From the NCBI GenBank assembly GCA_965205295.1, contig OZ242167.1, forward strand, positions 2,898,097 to 2,962,096: a DNA stretch of 64,000 bases, in the 5' to 3' direction. Origin of the DNA: Candidatus Multivorans sp. (lineage in GTDB: Bacteria > Acidobacteriota > Thermoanaerobaculia > Multivoradales > Multivoraceae). The notes beneath the pieces were generated by a model. It did not search any database, was not told the DNA's origin, and worked only from the letters and a program-made list of their open reading frames with translations. A program made the translations under genes and the position numbers. Numbering within the stretch: the first letter of the stretch is position 1; each line of letters starts with the position of its first letter. Shown piece by piece: positions 41,960-48,506 of the stretch.

Positions 41960-43849
41960 TCAGGATCCGTACTCGACCTCGATGACCCGGTCCAGGCCAT
42001 CGACCTCGACTGCCTGGCGGGCGCCGTCAGGCCAGACCACCTCGACCCGCACCAGGTCGTCGACCGACGACGCGGCGCCCAGGCCGATCGTCACCACCGG
42101 CTCGACCTGGCTCTGGTAGCTCCGCGTCGGCATGACGCGGCGCCGCTGCACCACAGGCCCAGCCGTGGTCTGTTGCTCGACCTCGATCCAGGCGCCAATC
42201 GCGTCGCGGTTCACCCGCTCGCCGTCGCCGCGAAGCCGGAAGCGCAGCCAGCGGTGGCCGGTCTCCTGGTCGTTGCGGAGCAGCAGCGGCCGGTCGCCGG
42301 TCTGGAGCAGCAGCACGTCGAGGTCGCCGTCGCCGTCGATGTCGGCGTAGGTCGATCCGCGGCCGACCAGCTCGCGGGTGAGTCCGTCGCCGGGCGCCGG
42401 TGTGACCGGCACGAAGGTCGATGCCGCGTCCGGCCCGGCGTTCCAGAACAACTGCGGCGCCTGCCGGTATTGCTGGCTCGGTTCGACCACCTCGATGTCG
42501 TCCTCGAGGTGGCCGTTGACCTGGAGCAGGTCGAGCCGTCCGTCCAGGTCGTAGTCGAAGAAGAAGAGCCCGAAGCTGAGCACGCGGCGGCTCGGCGCGC
42601 CGATGCCGGCGGTGATCGCCTCGTCGCTCCACAGCGTCGGATCGCCCTGGGAGACGTAGAGCGAGGTCATCTCGTTGGCGAAGTTCGCGATCGCGAAGCC
42701 GAGTTCGCCGTCGTTGCGGAAGTCGGCTGCATCGGCGCCCATCGCGCCGGTCGCCGCGCCCTCGCGGCTGTAGGCGAGGCCGTAGGCCCCCCCCTGCTCA
42801 GTGAAGACGCCGCCGCCGTCGTTCACGAGCAGGAAGTTGCGCACCGTGTCGTTGGCGACCAGCACGTCGACATCGCCGTCGCCCTCGACATCAACCGGCG
42901 CCAGCCCCAGCGTCTTCGCCACCGGCGCATCCGAGGCCGGGTTCAGGATGTGCAATCCGGCTTCCTCAGAGACGTCGACAAAGACACCGGAACCATCGTT
43001 CCGGTACAGGTCCAGGGTGGTGCCGCCGTAGTTCAGGGGCGGTCCGTAGGCGCGTCCAACCCCGGTCAACTGGTAGCCGACCTCGATGTCGATCTCACGC
43101 GACCAGCGCACGTAGTTGCCCACCAGGAGGTCGAGGTCGCCATCGCCGTCCGCGTCGAAGAAGGCGCTGCTGCTGCTCCATTCGTCCGCGGCGCCGGCGA
43201 CGGCGGCCCTCGCGGTCACGTCCTCGAAGCGGGCCCCTTCCACGTTCCGGAACAGGCGGTTCGGCCCCACCGCGGAGATGAACAGATCGACCCAGCCGTC
43301 GTCGTCCACGTCGCCGACCGCGACGCCGGCGCCGTAGAAGCTCGTCGCCAGGCCGAGTGCGGCGGTGCGGTCGGCGAACCGGCCGGAACCGTCGTTCTCG
43401 TACAGCGCCATCGTCGGTCCGGTCTCCGGCGCCGCCTTCCACTCGGTCGAGTTGACCAGCAGCAGGTCCTGGTCGCCGTCCCGGTCGAAGTCGAAGAAGG
43501 CCGCGCCCGAACCCATCGTCTCCGGCAACAGGGCATCGCCCTCGGCGCCGTTGACATGAACGAAGTCGATGCCGGCCTCGGCCGTGATGTCCGTGAAGGG
43601 GATGACCGGAACCTCCGGCGCCGCCGCCACGGCCCGCGGCGCCTCGACCGGGATCTCCCTCGCCTCCTCGGGCGCCGCCCGGAAGACGGTGCGCAGCGCG
43701 AACAGGAGAAGCGCGGCGACGGCCAGCGCCGCCAGTACCTTGAGGGAACGAGCGAACGCCCGGCCGATGACCGCGTCGTCCTCGGCTACGAGTTCTTCGT
43801 CCGGTCTCGGCTCCTCCGGGCGCTCGTCTCCCGGCCGGTCGGGAGTCAA
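41960..43849 (-). CDS. CRTAC1-family protein (FG-GAP/VCBS + ASPIC/UnbV); start uncertain
   Basis: FDFDRDGDQD/GDVDDDGW/ADIDGDGDLD repeats and a C-terminal VEVVWPDGARQAVEV block. No ATG is available downstream of the upstream gene's stop. The only candidate is a TTG at 43849 overlapping that stop (TTGA), followed by a TM helix. Confidence 0.65.
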   Translation of the reverse strand: MTPDRPGDERPEEPRPDEELVAEDDAVIGRAFARSLKVLAALAVAALLLFALRTVFRAAPEEAREIPVEAPRAVAAAPEVPVIPFTDITAEAGIDFVHVNGAEGDALLPETMGSGAAFFDFDRDGDQDLLLVNSTEWKAAPETGPTMALYENDGSGRFADRTAALGLATSFYGAGVAVGDVDDDGWVDLFISAVGPNRLFRNVEGARFEDVTARAAVAGAADEWSSSSAFFDADGDGDLDLLVGNYVRWSREIDIEVGYQLTGVGRAYGPPLNYGGTTLDLYRNDGSGVFVDVSEEAGLHILNPASDAPVAKTLGLAPVDVEGDGDVDVLVANDTVRNFLLVNDGGGVFTEQGGAYGLAYSREGAATGAMGADAADFRNDGELGFAIANFANEMTSLYVSQGDPTLWSDEAITAGIGAPSRRVLSFGLFFFDYDLDGRLDLLQVNGHLEDDIEVVEPSQQYRQAPQLFWNAGPDAASTFVPVTPAPGDGLTRELVGRGSTYADIDGDGDLDVLLLQTGDRPLLLRNDQETGHRWLRFRLRGDGERVNRDAIGAWIEVEQQTTAGPVVQRRRVMPTRSYQSQVEPVVTIGLGAASSVDDLVRVEVVWPDGARQAVEVDGLDRVIEVEYGS

Positions 43850-46704: not shown

Positions 46705-48506
46705 TTGCTCGCTCCGGTCGCTGCCGCGTGCCGTTGCGGAGCCCGAGACGCCGCCTCGATCTCTTCGTCGACCAGCCTGTCTAGCGCCCGCAGCAGACGG
46801 AACGTGACGGCGTAACCGGCGCGGCGAACCCGTGCCGACGTCGGCTGGCCGGTGACCCTTACCGCGAAGGCGTATCGGGGCGGCTGCCTCTCGTCAGAGG
46901 GGAAGAAGCCGACGTAGTTCACATGGAACGGCTTGTCCGGATCGCGCGCCGTGCCCGTCTTCATCGCCACCCGGAGACGCTGCGGCGCCACACGGTTCGC
47001 CGAGCCGCCCGGAGACACGACCGCACGCATCGACTCGTGCAGCACCGGCAGCCAGGACGGGTCGAGAACCTCGACGCCCTGGCGCGGACCGTCGCCGGCC
47101 GGTGTCCGCGGCGAGATGCCCAGAAGTCCGTCCGCCTGCAGAACGAAGCTCGGCTCGCGCCGGCGGCCGTCCGAGAGGGTGGCGGCGAAGATGGCCGCCC
47201 CCAAGGGCGTGATCGAGGCTTCCTCCAGGCCGATCGAGAGATCGCCGAGCTGCCTGCCCGGGTGACGGTACTCATGCACCACACCGACGGCGTTCCGCGG
47301 CACCGCCTCGCCGCTCCTGCCGCCGATGACGAAGCCGTAACGTTCGTACTCTTCGACCAGCGCCCGGTCGCCGACGTCCATCGCGAGCTTGGCGAAGGCG
47401 ACGTTGCAGCTACTGGCCATCGCTGCGGAGAGCCCCCGGAGCCGGCCGTTGATCGCGCTGCAGTAGAGCCGCTGACCGTCCATCAGCACCGAGCCGCGGC
47501 AGGTCATGTCGGCGATCTCCTGGTCGGGGTCGAGACCGGCCCGCATCGCCGCCGTCGTGGTGATCAGCTTGGCGATCGACGCCGGCTCGCGCGGATCGAG
47601 GACGCTGTCGCCGTTCGACCGCCACCGGCGGCTTCGACCGCGGTTGCTCACCGCGGCCAGGACCGCGCCCGACGGGATCTCCACGATCGCGATCGCGCCC
47701 TCTTCCCTGCCCAGCGCCACGTCGGCCGCCTCGCTCCAGGCCCGGTCGATCGTCAGCCGCAGGGCTCGCGCACGGGCCACGGCGCCGCTCATCGCCCCCG
47801 GTCCGGCGGCGGCAAGACCCGGAGGCTGGAGGGCGGAAGGCAGCAGATGGGTCGCCAACTCGACCGGCACCAGGCCGGCCGGCAGATCCTCTACCAGCGT
47901 CAACGAACGGTCGTCGCCGATCGATCCCAATGGCCGGCCCCTTCGGTCGAAGAGCAGTTGCTGCACGCCCGAGGCGTCGACCGCCTGTGCCCGCCGCAGA
48001 CGCCGCTCGAACGCAGACGCCGGCGGCGGTTCGTCCGCGGCCGATTCTGCTCCAGCTTCCTCGGCGCGATTCACACCGAGTTCCACCTCGGCCGCGGCCA
48101 GCAGTGCCGGCGGCAGATGCTCGGCGTGGTCTTCGTACAACGCCGCCACTTCGCGCCAGCGGCCCTCCCCGGCCGCGTGCCGGGCGGCCAGGCTGAGCAG
48201 GCCTGGAGACCGCTCGGCGAGTCGCTCGAATCCCTCGCCGGCAGTCGCCGCTTCCGCCAGACCGAGTTCGAGCCGCGCCTGTCCGACCTTCTGCTGAACC
48301 CGCCACGCCGAGAACGCCGCCACCGCGAGGACGGCCAGCAGCGCCGCCTGAACCCGGCGGCGCAGCGGCCACAACGTCCGCCAGGTCTCCCAGCGGAAGA
48401 TGGGCGACTGCAGGCCGGCGGCCAGTACCTGTTCGAGGCGGCGGCGCACCACAGCACCTGGACCGTCGGCAGGGCCGCGCTCAGCGTCCTTGGGTGTACC
48501 GCTCAT
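46701..48506 (-). CDS. penicillin-binding-protein-type transpeptidase domain protein with N-terminal membrane/helical region
   Basis: SxxK (PASIAKLIT), SxN (SCN) and KTG (KTGTA) motifs in order. Confidence 0.7.
   Translation of the reverse strand: MSGTPKDAERGPADGPGAVVRRRLEQVLAAGLQSPIFRWETWRTLWPLRRRVQAALLAVLAVAAFSAWRVQQKVGQARLELGLAEAATAGEGFERLAERSPGLLSLAARHAAGEGRWREVAALYEDHAEHLPPALLAAAEVELGVNRAEEAGAESAADEPPPASAFERRLRRAQAVDASGVQQLLFDRRGRPLGSIGDDRSLTLVEDLPAGLVPVELATHLLPSALQPPGLAAAGPGAMSGAVARARALRLTIDRAWSEAADVALGREEGAIAIVEIPSGAVLAAVSNRGRSRRWRSNGDSVLDPREPASIAKLITTTAAMRAGLDPDQEIADMTCRGSVLMDGQRLYCSAINGRLRGLSAAMASSCNVAFAKLAMDVGDRALVEEYERYGFVIGGRSGEAVPRNAVGVVHEYRHPGRQLGDLSIGLEEASITPLGAAIFAATLSDGRRREPSFVLQADGLLGISPRTPAGDGPRQGVEVLDPSWLPVLHESMRAVVSPGGSANRVAPQRLRVAMKTGTARDPDKPFHVNYVGFFPSDERQPPRYAFAVRVTGQPTSARVRRAGYAVTFRLLRALDRLVDEEIEAASRAPQRHAAATGASK

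What the first reader, a model, noticed from the sequence alone, without database searches (positions are those of the whole stretch)
41960..48506. Translationally coupled PBP-transpeptidase / multiheme-cytochrome-TPR / CRTAC1 operon with non-ATG coupled starts
Three minus-strand genes overlap at their junctions: PBP stop with cytochrome GTG start at 46701-46704, and cytochrome stop with the only possible CRTAC1 start, a TTG (TTGA) at 43846-43849. The combination of a cell-wall transpeptidase-like protein, a membrane multiheme cytochrome fused to TPR, and a secreted FG-GAP/ASPIC protein is not a standard functional unit. A second CRTAC1 locus (10525-14654) also pairs with a TPR fusion (sulfatase-TPR).
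Basis: partly seen in the sequence, partly recalled or inferred. Interest (0 to 1): 0.5.

Follow-up and report, generated by a model that had tools for sequence, protein, structure and literature searches.

The report
Conserved membrane cytochrome–CRTAC1 gene pair
The multiheme cytochrome-TPR gene and the CRTAC1-like gene after it form an uncharacterised, translationally coupled two-gene unit kept together across many bacterial phyla, whereas the penicillin-binding-protein gene in front is a neighbour only in this one lineage.

Summary
Three minus-strand genes overlap by 4 nt: GTGA at 46701-46704 and TTGA at 43846-43849. The domain calls are correct. The TTG start of the CRTAC1 gene is well supported, because orthologues in other phyla carry ATG at the same overlapping position.

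The "three-gene operon" reading is only partly right.
- **The pair is conserved.** In 80 loci from species-representative genomes, 69 of the 72 with enough flank have a CRTAC1 orthologue directly downstream. About half of those junctions overlap. The pairing persists in relatives at 30-38% identity.
- **The PBP-like gene is not.** It precedes the pair only in the window's own family (Ca. Multivoraceae).
- **The second locus is not.** The sulfatase-TPR/CRTAC1 pairing is also confined to close relatives.

The cytochrome has four parts:
- a 5-helix membrane domain with four invariant histidines, probably two b-haem sites;
- a five-haem cap;
- an Ig-like domain related to Thermochromatium pentahaem c552 and MccSep;
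- a C-terminal TPR domain.

The partner is a cysteine-free, membrane-anchored FG-GAP/UnbV propeller with calcium-loop motifs.

My best reading is a membrane-bound periplasmic redox complex of unknown substrate. I found no description of it in the searchable literature.

The parts
46701..48506 (-). PBP-like gene (601 aa). One TM helix (res 52-70), a ~250-aa N-terminal region with no family match, and a class-B-type transpeptidase domain with SIAK310, SCN366 and KTG516. It is a lineage-specific upstream neighbour, probably co-transcribed.
   Evidence: Adjacent to the cytochrome only in L001, L002 and L013. Distant homologues lie elsewhere.
46701..46704 (-). GTGA junction: the cytochrome GTG start overlaps the PBP TGA stop. 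GGAG lies 7 nt upstream (46712-46715).
43846..46704 (-). Cytochrome-TPR gene (952 aa), first gene of the conserved two-gene module.
46135..46704 (-). N-terminal membrane domain (res 1-190). Five TM helices; invariant H71 and H89 on TM2 and H144 and H158 on TM4. Predicted to hold two stacked b-type haem sites (inferred).
   Evidence: The four His are invariant in 27 sequences from several phyla (A3). Hydropathy. PF01292 matches only below threshold, E 0.13. No PDB sequence hit. The same His pattern occurs in a separate 197-aa ORF in the split variant L158.
45295..46032 (-). Pentahaem c domain (res ~225-470). CXXCH at 231, 281, 313, 379 and 429; these ten cysteines are the only ones in the protein.
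   Evidence: Cytochrome_C554. Sequence match to 5ze8 pentahaem c552 over haems 1-3, E 5.7e-5 and 4e-4 with profile A4.
44635..45252 (-). Ig-like beta-sandwich domain (res ~485-690) with many invariant loop residues and no Pfam match.
43915..44607 (-). C-terminal TPR domain (res ~700-930).
43846..43849 (-). TTGA junction: the CRTAC1 TTG start overlaps the cytochrome TGA stop. GGAG lies 7 nt upstream (43857-43860).
41960..43849 (-). CRTAC1-family gene (629 aa), second gene of the module. Short cytoplasmic tail with the conserved motif EELVxxDDAVIGRAF, one TM helix (within res 31-60), an FG-GAP propeller with five DxDxDG loops, and a UnbV_ASPIC domain (res 550-615). It has no cysteine.
10525..12891 (+). 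Second locus: sulfatase-TPR fusion (788 aa). Not part of the conserved module.
   Evidence: CRTAC1 lies downstream only in ~85%-identical relatives.
12903..14654 (+). Second locus: CRTAC1 paralogue, a probable lipoprotein. The ATG at 12903 is the likelier start; the TTG at 12888 overlaps the upstream stop.

Best explanation
The core of the locus is a self-contained, translationally coupled two-gene module. I read it as encoding a cytoplasmic-membrane-anchored periplasmic redox complex.

Gene 1, the cytochrome-TPR protein, has four parts:
- a 5-helix membrane domain whose four invariant histidines pair as H71/H144 near the periplasmic face and H89/H158 near the cytoplasmic face. This is the geometry expected for two b-type haems carrying electrons across the membrane or from the quinone pool.
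- a five-haem c 'cap'.
- an Ig-like 'stem', together with the cap giving the fold of Thermochromatium pentahaem c552 and MccSep.
- a C-terminal TPR domain.

Gene 2 is a type-II membrane-anchored, cysteine-free FG-GAP/UnbV beta-propeller with calcium-loop motifs.

The start/stop overlap would give coupled, roughly equimolar synthesis. I infer that the TPR domain docks the propeller and that its single TM helix, with its conserved cytoplasmic motif, packs against the 5-TM domain. Electrons would then be exchanged between the membrane and a periplasmic site formed by the cap, the Ig-like loops and the propeller. The substrate is unknown.

In Ca. Multivoraceae only, a divergent class-B-type transpeptidase gene has been placed directly upstream and is probably co-transcribed.

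Shown: gene linkage, conserved overlap, domain architecture, haem motifs and invariant histidines. Inferred: b-haem binding, physical complex, direction of electron flow, and any catalysis.
For: Linkage:
- 69 of 72 assessable loci have the CRTAC1 orthologue (48-89% identity) directly downstream. They come from Acidobacteriota, Planctomycetota, Verrucomicrobiota, Gamma- and Betaproteobacteria and Methylomirabilota.
- Relatives at 30-38% identity are also paired. These include a split-gene variant (L158) and a SusC/SusD locus (L160), and in two of them the gene order is reversed.
- The reciprocal look-up from a 58%-identical CRTAC1 orthologue finds a 951-aa TPR protein upstream with a 4-nt overlap. 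That pair is flanked by opposite-strand genes.
- No other gene recurs next to the pair, apart from CRTAC1 paralogues and TPR proteins.

Coupling:
- 26 junctions are NTGA overlaps (18 ATG, 4 GTG, 4 TTG).
- About 10 more overlap by 8 or 11 nt.
- GGAG lies 7 nt upstream of both non-ATG starts in the window.

Architecture:
- Five invariant CXXCH motifs, with no other cysteine.
- Four invariant TM histidines. The same H-x17-H and H-x13-H pattern appears in the stand-alone 197-aa ORF of L158.
- 5ze8 is both the only significant haem-domain sequence hit and the top structural hit for the Ig-like domain.
- MccSep shows that this cap-plus-stem fold can be an enzyme whose active site lies between the two domains (bioRxiv 10.1101/2025.11.18.688581).

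Constraint: 54-69% identity over ~940 aa between phyla is high, which to me suggests more than a simple electron wire.

Wider association of TPR and haem proteins with CRTAC1:
- TPR-only proteins sit next to CRTAC1 paralogues with apparent 4-nt ORF overlaps.
- TPR+FG-GAP(+UnbV) fusion proteins exist.
- Hydrazine-synthase-like haem proteins flank a CRTAC1-family gene in other bacteria (PMC12758564).
Against: - There is no direct evidence for b-haem binding. The TM domain matches PF01292 only at E 0.13 and matches nothing in the PDB.
- The AF2 model of the haem domain is unreliable, with pLDDT below 50 for res 195-469.
- No complex was modelled or shown.
- The propeller has no cysteine and no cofactor motif other than Ca2+ loops, so a redox role for it is not evident.
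- The TPR regions of the TPR-CRTAC1 fusions resemble the cytochrome's TPR only generically, so the fusion argument is weak.
- Three loci lack the partner downstream (L003, L058, L060).
- High cross-phylum identity could partly reflect horizontal transfer rather than constraint.
Confidence: 0.5

Rival explanations
1. One reading: PBP-like transpeptidase, cytochrome-TPR and CRTAC1 form one three-component functional unit, for example redox-linked cell-wall remodelling, with the TPR domain acting on the PBP as Lpo-type activators do.
For: - All three genes overlap by 4 nt in the window.
- The same order is kept in L001, L002 and L013.
- The catalytic motifs SIAK, SCN and KTG are intact.
- A TPR-containing PBP activator (LpoP, 6w5q) appears among the TPR structural hits.
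Against: - The PBP-like gene precedes the cytochrome in only 3 of 80 loci, all from one family.
- Its 40-43%-identical homologues are in unrelated contexts.
- The PBP-like family is small, with 105 hits. The cytochrome family has 663 clusters at E<=1e-30.
- The LpoP hit is generic TPR similarity.
Confidence: 0.08
2. The pair is an accessory of glycan or organic-polymer utilisation. The propeller binds a polysaccharide-derived substrate in the periplasm, and the cytochrome supplies or removes electrons for an oxidative or reductive step. This is a substrate-specific version of the best explanation.
For: - In L160 the pair lies inside a SusC/SusD locus with GH97 and GH101 genes.
- A sulfatase gene lies directly upstream in the window and in L001 and L013, and sulfatases lie near the pair in L016 and L020.
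- The window's second CRTAC1 gene follows a TonB-dependent receptor and a sulfatase-TPR gene.
Against: - No glycoside hydrolase, sulfatase or transporter gene recurs next to the pair across the 80 loci.
- From my own knowledge, these phyla carry very many sulfatase and CAZyme genes, so chance adjacency is likely.
- No carbohydrate-binding or catalytic motif was identified.
Confidence: 0.2
3. The cytochrome-TPR protein is a haem-based redox or gas sensor, and the CRTAC1 protein transmits a signal across the membrane through its conserved cytoplasmic motif.
For: - The cytoplasmic juxtamembrane motif (DDAVIGRAF[RK]xS) is strongly conserved.
- LytTR/histidine-kinase genes lie near the pair in a few Verrucomicrobiota loci.
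Against: - Neither protein has a recognisable output domain.
- The cytoplasmic tail is only ~30 residues.
- Regulator genes are not consistently linked.
Confidence: 0.07
4. The adjacency has no functional meaning: two common periplasmic protein families lie next to each other by chance or by hitch-hiking.
For: CRTAC1-family and TPR genes are numerous in these genomes. Several paralogues occur in the same loci.
Against: - There is 96% linkage with a specific orthologous CRTAC1 subfamily across phyla.
- The start/stop overlap is conserved.
- Linkage persists at 30-38% identity and after a change of gene order.
Confidence: 0.02

Closest known systems
Pentahaem cytochrome c552 of Thermochromatium tepidum (PDB 5ZE8) and the 'PHC' group proposed in PMC11976967 (Geobacter ExtKL and GSU2801, cable-bacteria pentahaem cytochromes)
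   Same: - Five CXXCH motifs in an N-terminal helical domain, followed by an Ig-like beta-sandwich.
- Significant sequence match over haems 1-3.
   Different: - c552, as described, is not fused to a membrane or TPR domain; the window protein adds a 5-TM four-histidine domain in front and a ~250-aa TPR domain behind.
- The window protein has an obligatory CRTAC1 partner gene.
- Identity is low (18% over the Ig-like domain).
- The function of c552 itself is unassigned (PMC11976967).
MccSep, a multihaem selenoenzyme for sulfur respiration (PDB 9WT8; bioRxiv 10.1101/2025.11.18.688581)
   Same: It is a precedent that this fold is catalytic, with the active site between the haem domain and a loop of the Ig-like domain. 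There is a weak sequence match around haem 1.
   Different: MccSep's catalytic features are a His/Cys-ligated haem 2 and a selenocysteine. The window family has no cysteine outside the five CXXCH motifs, so that chemistry is excluded. MccSep is described as a homotetramer in solution; the paper passages I read mention no membrane anchor.
Membrane quinol-linked cytochromes that combine a dihaem b domain with multihaem c, such as Geobacter CbcL, and dihaem b subunits such as NarI, FdnI and HydC (from my own knowledge, not tested here)
   Same: This is what the module would work like: two bis-His haems stacked across the membrane, feeding periplasmic c haems. Two histidines on each of two helices resemble these subunits.
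   Different: There is no significant sequence relationship (PF01292 E 0.13; no PDB hit). The domain has five helices with its own conserved motifs, and no partner dehydrogenase or reductase is known.
CRTAC1 / ASPIC / UnbV family, including enediyne 'E4' (UnbV) proteins
   Same: FG-GAP_3 repeats plus a C-terminal UnbV_ASPIC domain. Orthologues are named 'CRTAC1 family protein' by NCBI and 'enediyne biosynthesis protein E4' by JGI. From my own knowledge, UnbV in enediyne clusters is also encoded next to an integral membrane protein (UnbU).
   Different: This subfamily has a conserved cytoplasmic motif and a TM anchor, has no cysteine, and is tied to a multihaem-TPR gene rather than to polyketide genes. 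No member of the bacterial family has, to my knowledge, a demonstrated biochemical function.
Hydrazine-synthase-like gene clusters of non-anammox bacteria (PMC12758564)
   Same: Genes for periplasmic c-haem proteins flank a gene annotated 'CRTAC1 family protein'. This is an independent case of a CRTAC1-type propeller linked to haem proteins.
   Different: The haem proteins are different (HZS alpha and beta-gamma homologues, beta-propeller plus c554 domains). That paper describes no TPR domain, no membrane domain and no overlap.

Membership tests
Pentahaem cytochrome (c552/MccSep-type cap plus Ig-like stem) | Five CXXCH haem-binding motifs in one N-terminal helical domain | tested here: met
   CXXCH at 231, 281, 313, 379 and 429. 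All are invariant in 18 sequences (A1) and 30 sequences (A4).
Pentahaem cytochrome (c552/MccSep-type cap plus Ig-like stem) | Sequence homology to a solved member | tested here: met
   5ze8: E 5.7e-5 with the single sequence and 4e-4 with the profile, covering haems 1-3. Haem 5 aligns colinearly but below threshold.
Pentahaem cytochrome (c552/MccSep-type cap plus Ig-like stem) | C-terminal Ig-like beta-sandwich after the haem domain | tested here: met
Pentahaem cytochrome (c552/MccSep-type cap plus Ig-like stem) | Y-shaped packing of the five haems | not testable with these tools
   The haem domain is modelled at pLDDT below 50 and without haems.
MccSep-type sulfur/selenium reductase | His/Cys-ligated haem 2 and a catalytic Sec or Cys from the Ig-like domain | tested here: not met
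   There is no cysteine outside the five CXXCH motifs in the window protein and none invariant in the family.
Prokaryotic dihaem cytochrome b (PF01292-like) | Significant match to the family profile | tested here: inconclusive
   PF01292 matches at E 0.13, 12.4 bits against a cut-off of 30.1. The match spans profile positions 11-166 of 179. There is no PDB sequence hit.
Prokaryotic dihaem cytochrome b (PF01292-like) | Four conserved transmembrane histidines placed to ligate two haems | tested here: met
   H71, H89, H144 and H158 are invariant in 27 sequences from several phyla. The same H-x17-H and H-x13-H pattern occurs in the split ORF of L158. Actual haem binding was not tested.
CRTAC1 / ASPIC-UnbV family | FG-GAP-type repeats with Ca2+-loop motifs plus a C-terminal UnbV_ASPIC domain | tested here: met
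   FG-GAP_3 E 3e-33 (5 stretches) and UnbV_ASPIC E 5e-17. Five DxDxDG loops. NCBIfam has no model that matches.
Class B penicillin-binding protein | Transpeptidase domain with SxxK, SxN and KTG motifs | tested here: met
   PF00905 E 2e-24. SIAK310, SCN366 and KTG516. SpoVD and FtsI are the closest structures, E 7e-12.
Class B penicillin-binding protein | N-terminal pedestal (PBP dimerisation) domain and membership of a named equivalog (PBP2, FtsI, SpoVD) | tested here: not met
   No Pfam family other than Transpeptidase matches, so the pedestal domain (PF03717) was not detected. All NCBIfam equivalogs fall far below cut-off, for example pbp2_mrdA at 81 bits against 455.
Translationally coupled gene pair | Start codon overlapping or abutting the upstream stop, with a ribosome-binding site inside the upstream gene | tested here: met
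   GTGA and TTGA overlaps with GGAG 7 nt upstream of each start. The overlap is conserved in about half of the orthologous pairs.
Translationally coupled gene pair | Downstream translation depends on upstream translation | not testable with these tools
   This needs reporter fusions with premature stops, or ribosome profiling.

The most novel reading that the evidence does not exclude
The pair encodes a previously unrecognised and widespread cytoplasmic-membrane redox enzyme: two b haems, five c haems and a calcium-binding propeller. It would link the quinone pool to a new periplasmic reaction, with the active site formed by the invariant loops of the Ig-like domain and the CRTAC1 propeller. 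That would give the first biochemical role for bacterial CRTAC1/UnbV proteins, in Planctomycetota, Verrucomicrobiota, Acidobacteriota and others.
Probability: 0.3. Interest if true: 0.8.

Novelty: new variant of a known kind. Interest (0 to 1): 0.55.

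Why it matters
**Scale and conservation.** The cytochrome family is large: 663 clusters at 50% identity with E<=1e-30, and at least 578 hits among species-representative genomes. It is 54-69% identical between phyla. Public records name it only 'tetratricopeptide repeat protein' or 'multiheme c-type cytochrome'.

**A concrete partner for an uncharacterised family.** To my knowledge, bacterial CRTAC1/UnbV propellers are abundant but have no demonstrated function. A fixed, translationally coupled partnership with a membrane multihaem protein gives a testable hypothesis: a complex that exchanges electrons. 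It also offers cultured hosts to test it in, for example Rhodopirellula (L079).

**An extension of a known fold.** The module takes the pentahaem cap-plus-stem fold, which was recently shown to be catalytic in MccSep, into a membrane-anchored, TPR-fused form.

**Annotation.** The result validates a TTG start and a GTG start. It also shows that the adjacent PBP-like gene should not be read as part of the system.

Tried and rejected
1. **Three-gene unit including the PBP.** Rejected: the PBP-like gene is adjacent in only 3 of 80 loci, and its distant homologues lie elsewhere.
2. **Sulfatase-TPR plus CRTAC1 as a second conserved example.** Rejected. Of 73 metagenome loci with the sulfatase-TPR fusion, only the ~85%-identical ones (L084, L085, L089) have a CRTAC1 gene downstream.
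3. **TTG coupling at the second locus.** Unlikely: the ATG at 12903 opens a lipoprotein signal peptide.
4. **Upstream GTG starts (44371, 44359) for CRTAC1.** Rejected. They would add an Arg-rich extension read out of frame through the TPR coding region. L013 has an in-frame stop there.
5. **TPR-CRTAC1 fusion proteins as specific evidence of interaction.** The TPR similarity is only generic, so I kept this as weak support.
7. **TM-domain profile against the PDB.** Nothing was found.
8. **MccSep-like chemistry.** Excluded by the absence of non-haem cysteines.
9. **Promoter and terminator scan of 37000-52000.** Nothing above the shuffled expectation.
10. **Literature.** Searches for CRTAC1, ASPIC or UnbV combined with multihaem, cytochrome, tetratricopeptide, PUL or SusD found no description of the pair.
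11. **Look-up of the exact window CRTAC1 product.** It was not on record in the contig index.

Full report
**1. What is in the sequence**

The window is about 68% G+C. Its closest relatives are metagenome-assembled genomes of Thermoanaerobaculia named Ca. Multivorans and Ca. Multivoraceae (L013 95%, L001 89%, L002 82% identity for the cytochrome).

Three long minus-strand ORFs lie at 46701-48506, 43846-46704 and 41960-44371. Reading the junctions gives the following.
- The first ORF ends '...AGC AAG TGA'. The GTG at 46704-46702 overlaps that stop.
- The second ORF ends '...GGC GGT TGA'. The TTG at 43849-47 overlaps that stop.
- A GGAG lies exactly 7 nt upstream of each of these two starts.

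- Transpeptidase (E 2e-24);
- Cytochrome_C554 plus TPR families;
- FG-GAP_3 (E 3e-33) plus UnbV_ASPIC (E 5e-17).

The neighbouring genes on the same strand are a sulfatase upstream (48569-50122) and, downstream, two amidohydrolases and an RTX-repeat protein.

**2. The start codons**

*CRTAC1 gene.* The frame is open up to 44371. The only in-frame canonical starts are GTG 44371, GTG 44359 and TTG 43849. The first two would add about 170 Arg-rich residues read out of frame through the TPR coding region.

I aligned the N-termini of 43 orthologues from several phyla. They share:
- a short variable head;
- a conserved acidic motif (E-E-L-V-x-x-D-D-A-V-I-G-R-A-F-[RK]-x-S);
- one TM helix;
- a linker;
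- the start of the propeller (FTDIT..AGI.F.H.NGA).

The window's TTG aligns with the orthologues' initiator codons.

In L013, an in-frame TAG lies 51 nt upstream of the TTG and no other canonical start precedes the motif. A 100%-identical 629-aa product is already present in NCBI and ENA records (P0376), so at least one public gene call chose the same start.

*Cytochrome gene.* GTG 46704 is the first canonical start after the upstream in-frame stop. It is the only one that keeps the conserved RRRYxPxxGPRL motif.

Orthologues have ATG at the same overlapping position.

**3. Which genes belong together**

I aligned 18 homologues of the cytochrome and used the alignment to scan one genome per GTDB species. 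At least 578 stretches encode a relative, and 80 loci were kept. By their record titles they come from:
- Thermoanaerobaculia and other Acidobacteriota;
- Planctomycetota (including Rhodopirellula europaea 6C);
- Verrucomicrobiota;
- Gamma- and Betaproteobacteria;
- Latescibacterota;
- Methylomirabilota.

They are 54-95% identical to the window protein over about 940 residues.

A tblastn search with the window's proteins gave these counts.

| Loci | Number |
|---|---|
| CRTAC1 orthologue (48-89% identity) downstream, same strand | 69 |
| Fewer than 300 nt of downstream sequence, not assessable | 8 |
| Enough flank but no orthologue (L003, L058, L060) | 3 |

That is 69 of 72 assessable loci, or 96%.

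The junctions are also conserved.
- 26 have a start at the NTGA position: 18 ATG, 4 GTG and 4 TTG.
- About 10 overlap by 8 or 11 nt.
- Most of the rest have short gaps.

A reciprocal look-up from a 58%-identical CRTAC1 orthologue found a 951-aa TPR protein upstream with a 4-nt overlap. That pair is flanked by genes on the opposite strand, so it stands alone as a two-gene unit.

I clustered all flanking ORFs. No other gene recurs widely. The next most frequent neighbours are CRTAC1 paralogues, TPR-only proteins and TPR+FG-GAP(+UnbV) fusion proteins.

**4. The PBP-like gene is a lineage-specific neighbour**

It precedes the cytochrome only in L001, L002 and L013.

Its family is small: 105 hits. 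Those at 68-98% identity come from the same lineage, and the rest are at 53% identity or less. Three homologues at 40-43% identity on long contigs lie in unrelated neighbourhoods, with no cytochrome or CRTAC1 gene nearby.

The protein has:
- one TM helix;
- intact SIAK310, SCN366 and KTG516 motifs;
- a transpeptidase domain closest to SpoVD and FtsI (E 7e-12).

No pedestal domain was detected, and it falls far below every NCBIfam equivalog cut-off. It is best called a divergent class-B-type transpeptidase-domain protein. The 4-nt overlap suggests co-transcription in this lineage, but it is not part of the conserved unit.

**5. The second locus**

The sulfatase-TPR fusion (10525-12891) is followed by a CRTAC1 paralogue. 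The TTGA junction is real. However, an ATG five codons later opens MSRHPALALAILLAAC, a lipoprotein signal peptide, so the ATG is the likelier start.

I fetched 73 metagenome loci with this sulfatase-TPR fusion (38-86% identity). Only the ~85%-identical ones (L084, L085, L089) have a CRTAC1 gene downstream. At 66% identity or less, none of the loci with enough downstream sequence has one. This pairing is therefore recent and local. It is not a second instance of a conserved rule.

**6. Anatomy of the cytochrome-TPR protein**

*(a) Membrane domain, residues 1-190.* There are five hydrophobic helices. H71 and H89 on TM2 and H144 and H158 on TM4 are invariant in 27 sequences from several phyla.

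The N-terminus is positively charged and the c-haem domain must be periplasmic. TM2 and TM4 should therefore both run from periplasm to cytoplasm. That places H71/H144 near the outer face and H89/H158 near the inner face, the layout expected for two bis-His b haems stacked across the membrane. This is an inference. Pfam's cytochrome b561 family matches only at E 0.13, and no solved structure matches by sequence.

*(b) Haem domain, residues ~225-470.* There are five CXXCH motifs. These ten cysteines are the only ones in the protein, and all are invariant.

*(c) Ig-like domain, residues ~485-690.* This is a beta-sandwich with many invariant loop residues and no Pfam match.

*(d) TPR domain, residues ~700-930*.

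Two independent results tie (b) and (c) to the pentahaem cytochrome c552 of Thermochromatium tepidum (PDB 5ZE8).
- 5ZE8 is the only significant sequence hit for the haem region (E 5.7e-5; 4e-4 with a 30-sequence profile).

MccSep (PDB 9WT8) gives a weaker match.

Its active site is a His/Cys-ligated haem 2 plus a selenocysteine contributed by the stem (bioRxiv 10.1101/2025.11.18.688581). The window family has no spare cysteine, so it cannot use that chemistry. The precedent still shows that this fold can be an enzyme, with the site lying between cap and stem.

PMC11976967 groups c552 with Geobacter ExtKL and GSU2801 and with cable-bacteria pentahaem cytochromes. It notes that no function has been assigned to c552.

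**7. Family size and variants**

I searched residues 1-700, leaving out the TPR domain, against 1.84 billion representative proteins. This found 663 clusters at E<=1e-30 and 1844 at E<=1e-10. Most full-length members are 850-1000 aa.

Remote members keep the partnership.

| Locus | Protein, identity | Arrangement |
|---|---|---|
| L161 | P0312, 38% | CRTAC1-family gene downstream, 4-nt overlap |
| L159 | P0373, 30% | CRTAC1-family gene directly upstream |
| L160 | P0349, 31% | SusC/SusD, then FG-GAP and UnbV_ASPIC genes, then the cytochrome-TPR gene, then GH97 and GH101 |
| L158 | P0313, 38% | cytochrome lacks the membrane domain; CRTAC1 orthologue (38% identity) follows |

L158 is informative. 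A separate 197-aa ORF directly upstream of its cytochrome gene has five hydrophobic segments and the same H-x17-H and H-x13-H pattern. hhalign gives 82% probability and E 1e-5, but only over TM2. The membrane domain therefore looks like an autonomous module that can be encoded separately.

**8. The CRTAC1 partner**

In an alignment of 40 orthologues, 150 of 629 positions are at least 95% conserved. These include the DxDxDG calcium loops and an N-G-H-x-E motif. The window protein contains no cysteine at all.

The positive residues before the TM helix suggest a cytoplasmic N-terminus and a periplasmic propeller.

NCBI names the orthologues 'CRTAC1 family protein'. JGI names them 'enediyne biosynthesis protein E4', which is UnbV. 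I found no paper in the searchable library that describes this pair. The one related report is that hydrazine-synthase-like haem-protein genes flank a CRTAC1-family gene in some non-anammox bacteria (PMC12758564).

**9. Interpretation**

What is shown:
- a two-gene unit with conserved linkage and overlap;
- its domain architecture;
- its haem motifs and invariant histidines.

What I infer, with about 0.5 confidence overall:
- The two proteins form a membrane-anchored periplasmic complex.
- The TPR domain is the docking surface.
- The 5-TM domain carries two b haems that connect the quinone pool or the cytoplasmic side to the five c haems.
- The invariant Ig-like loops, perhaps together with the propeller, form a reaction or binding site.

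The very high cross-phylum conservation fits an enzyme better than a plain electron carrier. Horizontal transfer could contribute to it, however. A role in glycan or polymer processing is suggested only by scattered contexts (L160, and sulfatase neighbours) and is not supported by consistent linkage.

**10. Verdict**

The components belong to known families. The membrane-anchored, TPR-fused pentahaem architecture with a fixed CRTAC1 partner is, as far as I could find, undescribed. I rate it a new variant of a known kind, with interest 0.55.

Noticed in passing
L158:5457-6050 (+), upstream of L158:6001-8205: A stand-alone 197-aa membrane protein with no Pfam match. It carries the same H-x17-H and H-x13-H pattern as the window cytochrome's TM2 and TM4. 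It is encoded directly upstream of a family member that lacks the membrane domain, so this looks like a split-gene version of the fusion.
   Followed up: partly
L160:1-14637 (NCBI GCA_039539345.1): A 31%-identical cytochrome-TPR gene and FG-GAP and UnbV_ASPIC genes sit inside a SusC/SusD locus with GH97 and GH101 genes. The CRTAC1-like gene is called as two pieces (417 aa FG-GAP_3 and 142 aa UnbV_ASPIC), which may be a frameshift or a split gene.
   Followed up: no
L158:1-5396: Upstream of the split variant lie a 1013-aa multihaem cytochrome gene, three consecutive FGE-sulfatase-family genes and a Sortilin/BNR protein gene. This could be a larger redox cluster.
   Followed up: no
L003:263-7928, L006:222-7891, L012, L044, L050 (upstream of the cytochrome gene): Several loci carry an upstream array of two CRTAC1 paralogues (28-32% identity) followed by a ~1000-aa TPR+FG-GAP fusion protein, directly before the cytochrome-TPR gene. 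L003 lacks the usual downstream orthologue.
   Followed up: partly
L064:259-3404 (-), L066:1316-4494 (-), L021:12764-16030 (-): TPR-only protein genes (~480-510 aa) lie directly upstream of CRTAC1 paralogues related to the window's second copy. In L064 and L066 the longest ORFs overlap by 4 nt (true starts not checked). This is a more general TPR-then-CRTAC1 gene pairing.
   Followed up: partly
L013:13990-14481: A partial duplicate of the C-terminal part of the CRTAC1 gene (77% identity to residues 464-627) lies about 1.2 kb downstream of the intact gene in the closest relative.
   Followed up: no
window 15013-17954 (+): A PIN_12-domain gene and a DDE_Tnp_1 transposase gene lie just after the second CRTAC1 locus. 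This could relate to that locus being a recent, lineage-specific arrangement.
   Followed up: no
window 7720-10506 (+): A TonB-dependent receptor gene with an N-terminal CarboxypepD_reg domain precedes the sulfatase-TPR gene. The same receptor-then-sulfatase-TPR order recurs in several relatives at 51-86% sulfatase-TPR identity (L084-L087, L089, L092), so it is more conserved than the CRTAC1 pairing there.
   Followed up: partly
window 49956-52743 (+): A TraB/PrgY/GumN-family gene (49956-51398) and an HTH_3 plus Peptidase_M78 (IrrE-like) gene (51538-52743) lie on the opposite strand just beyond the sulfatase gene.
   Followed up: no
L030, L060, L072 (titled Akkermansia muciniphila); L059, L075 (titled Bifidobacterium / Bifidobacteriaceae): Environmental genome bins with these titles carry the cytochrome gene at 54-57% identity, and most also carry the CRTAC1 partner. 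Their closest matches in the set are Verrucomicrobiota-like, so the organism labels look doubtful.
   Followed up: no
window 40507-42000 (-): The longest ORF of the first amidohydrolase starts at an ATG 41 nt inside the CRTAC1 gene. Relatives align only from about residue 35, so the true start is probably downstream of the CRTAC1 stop.
   Followed up: no
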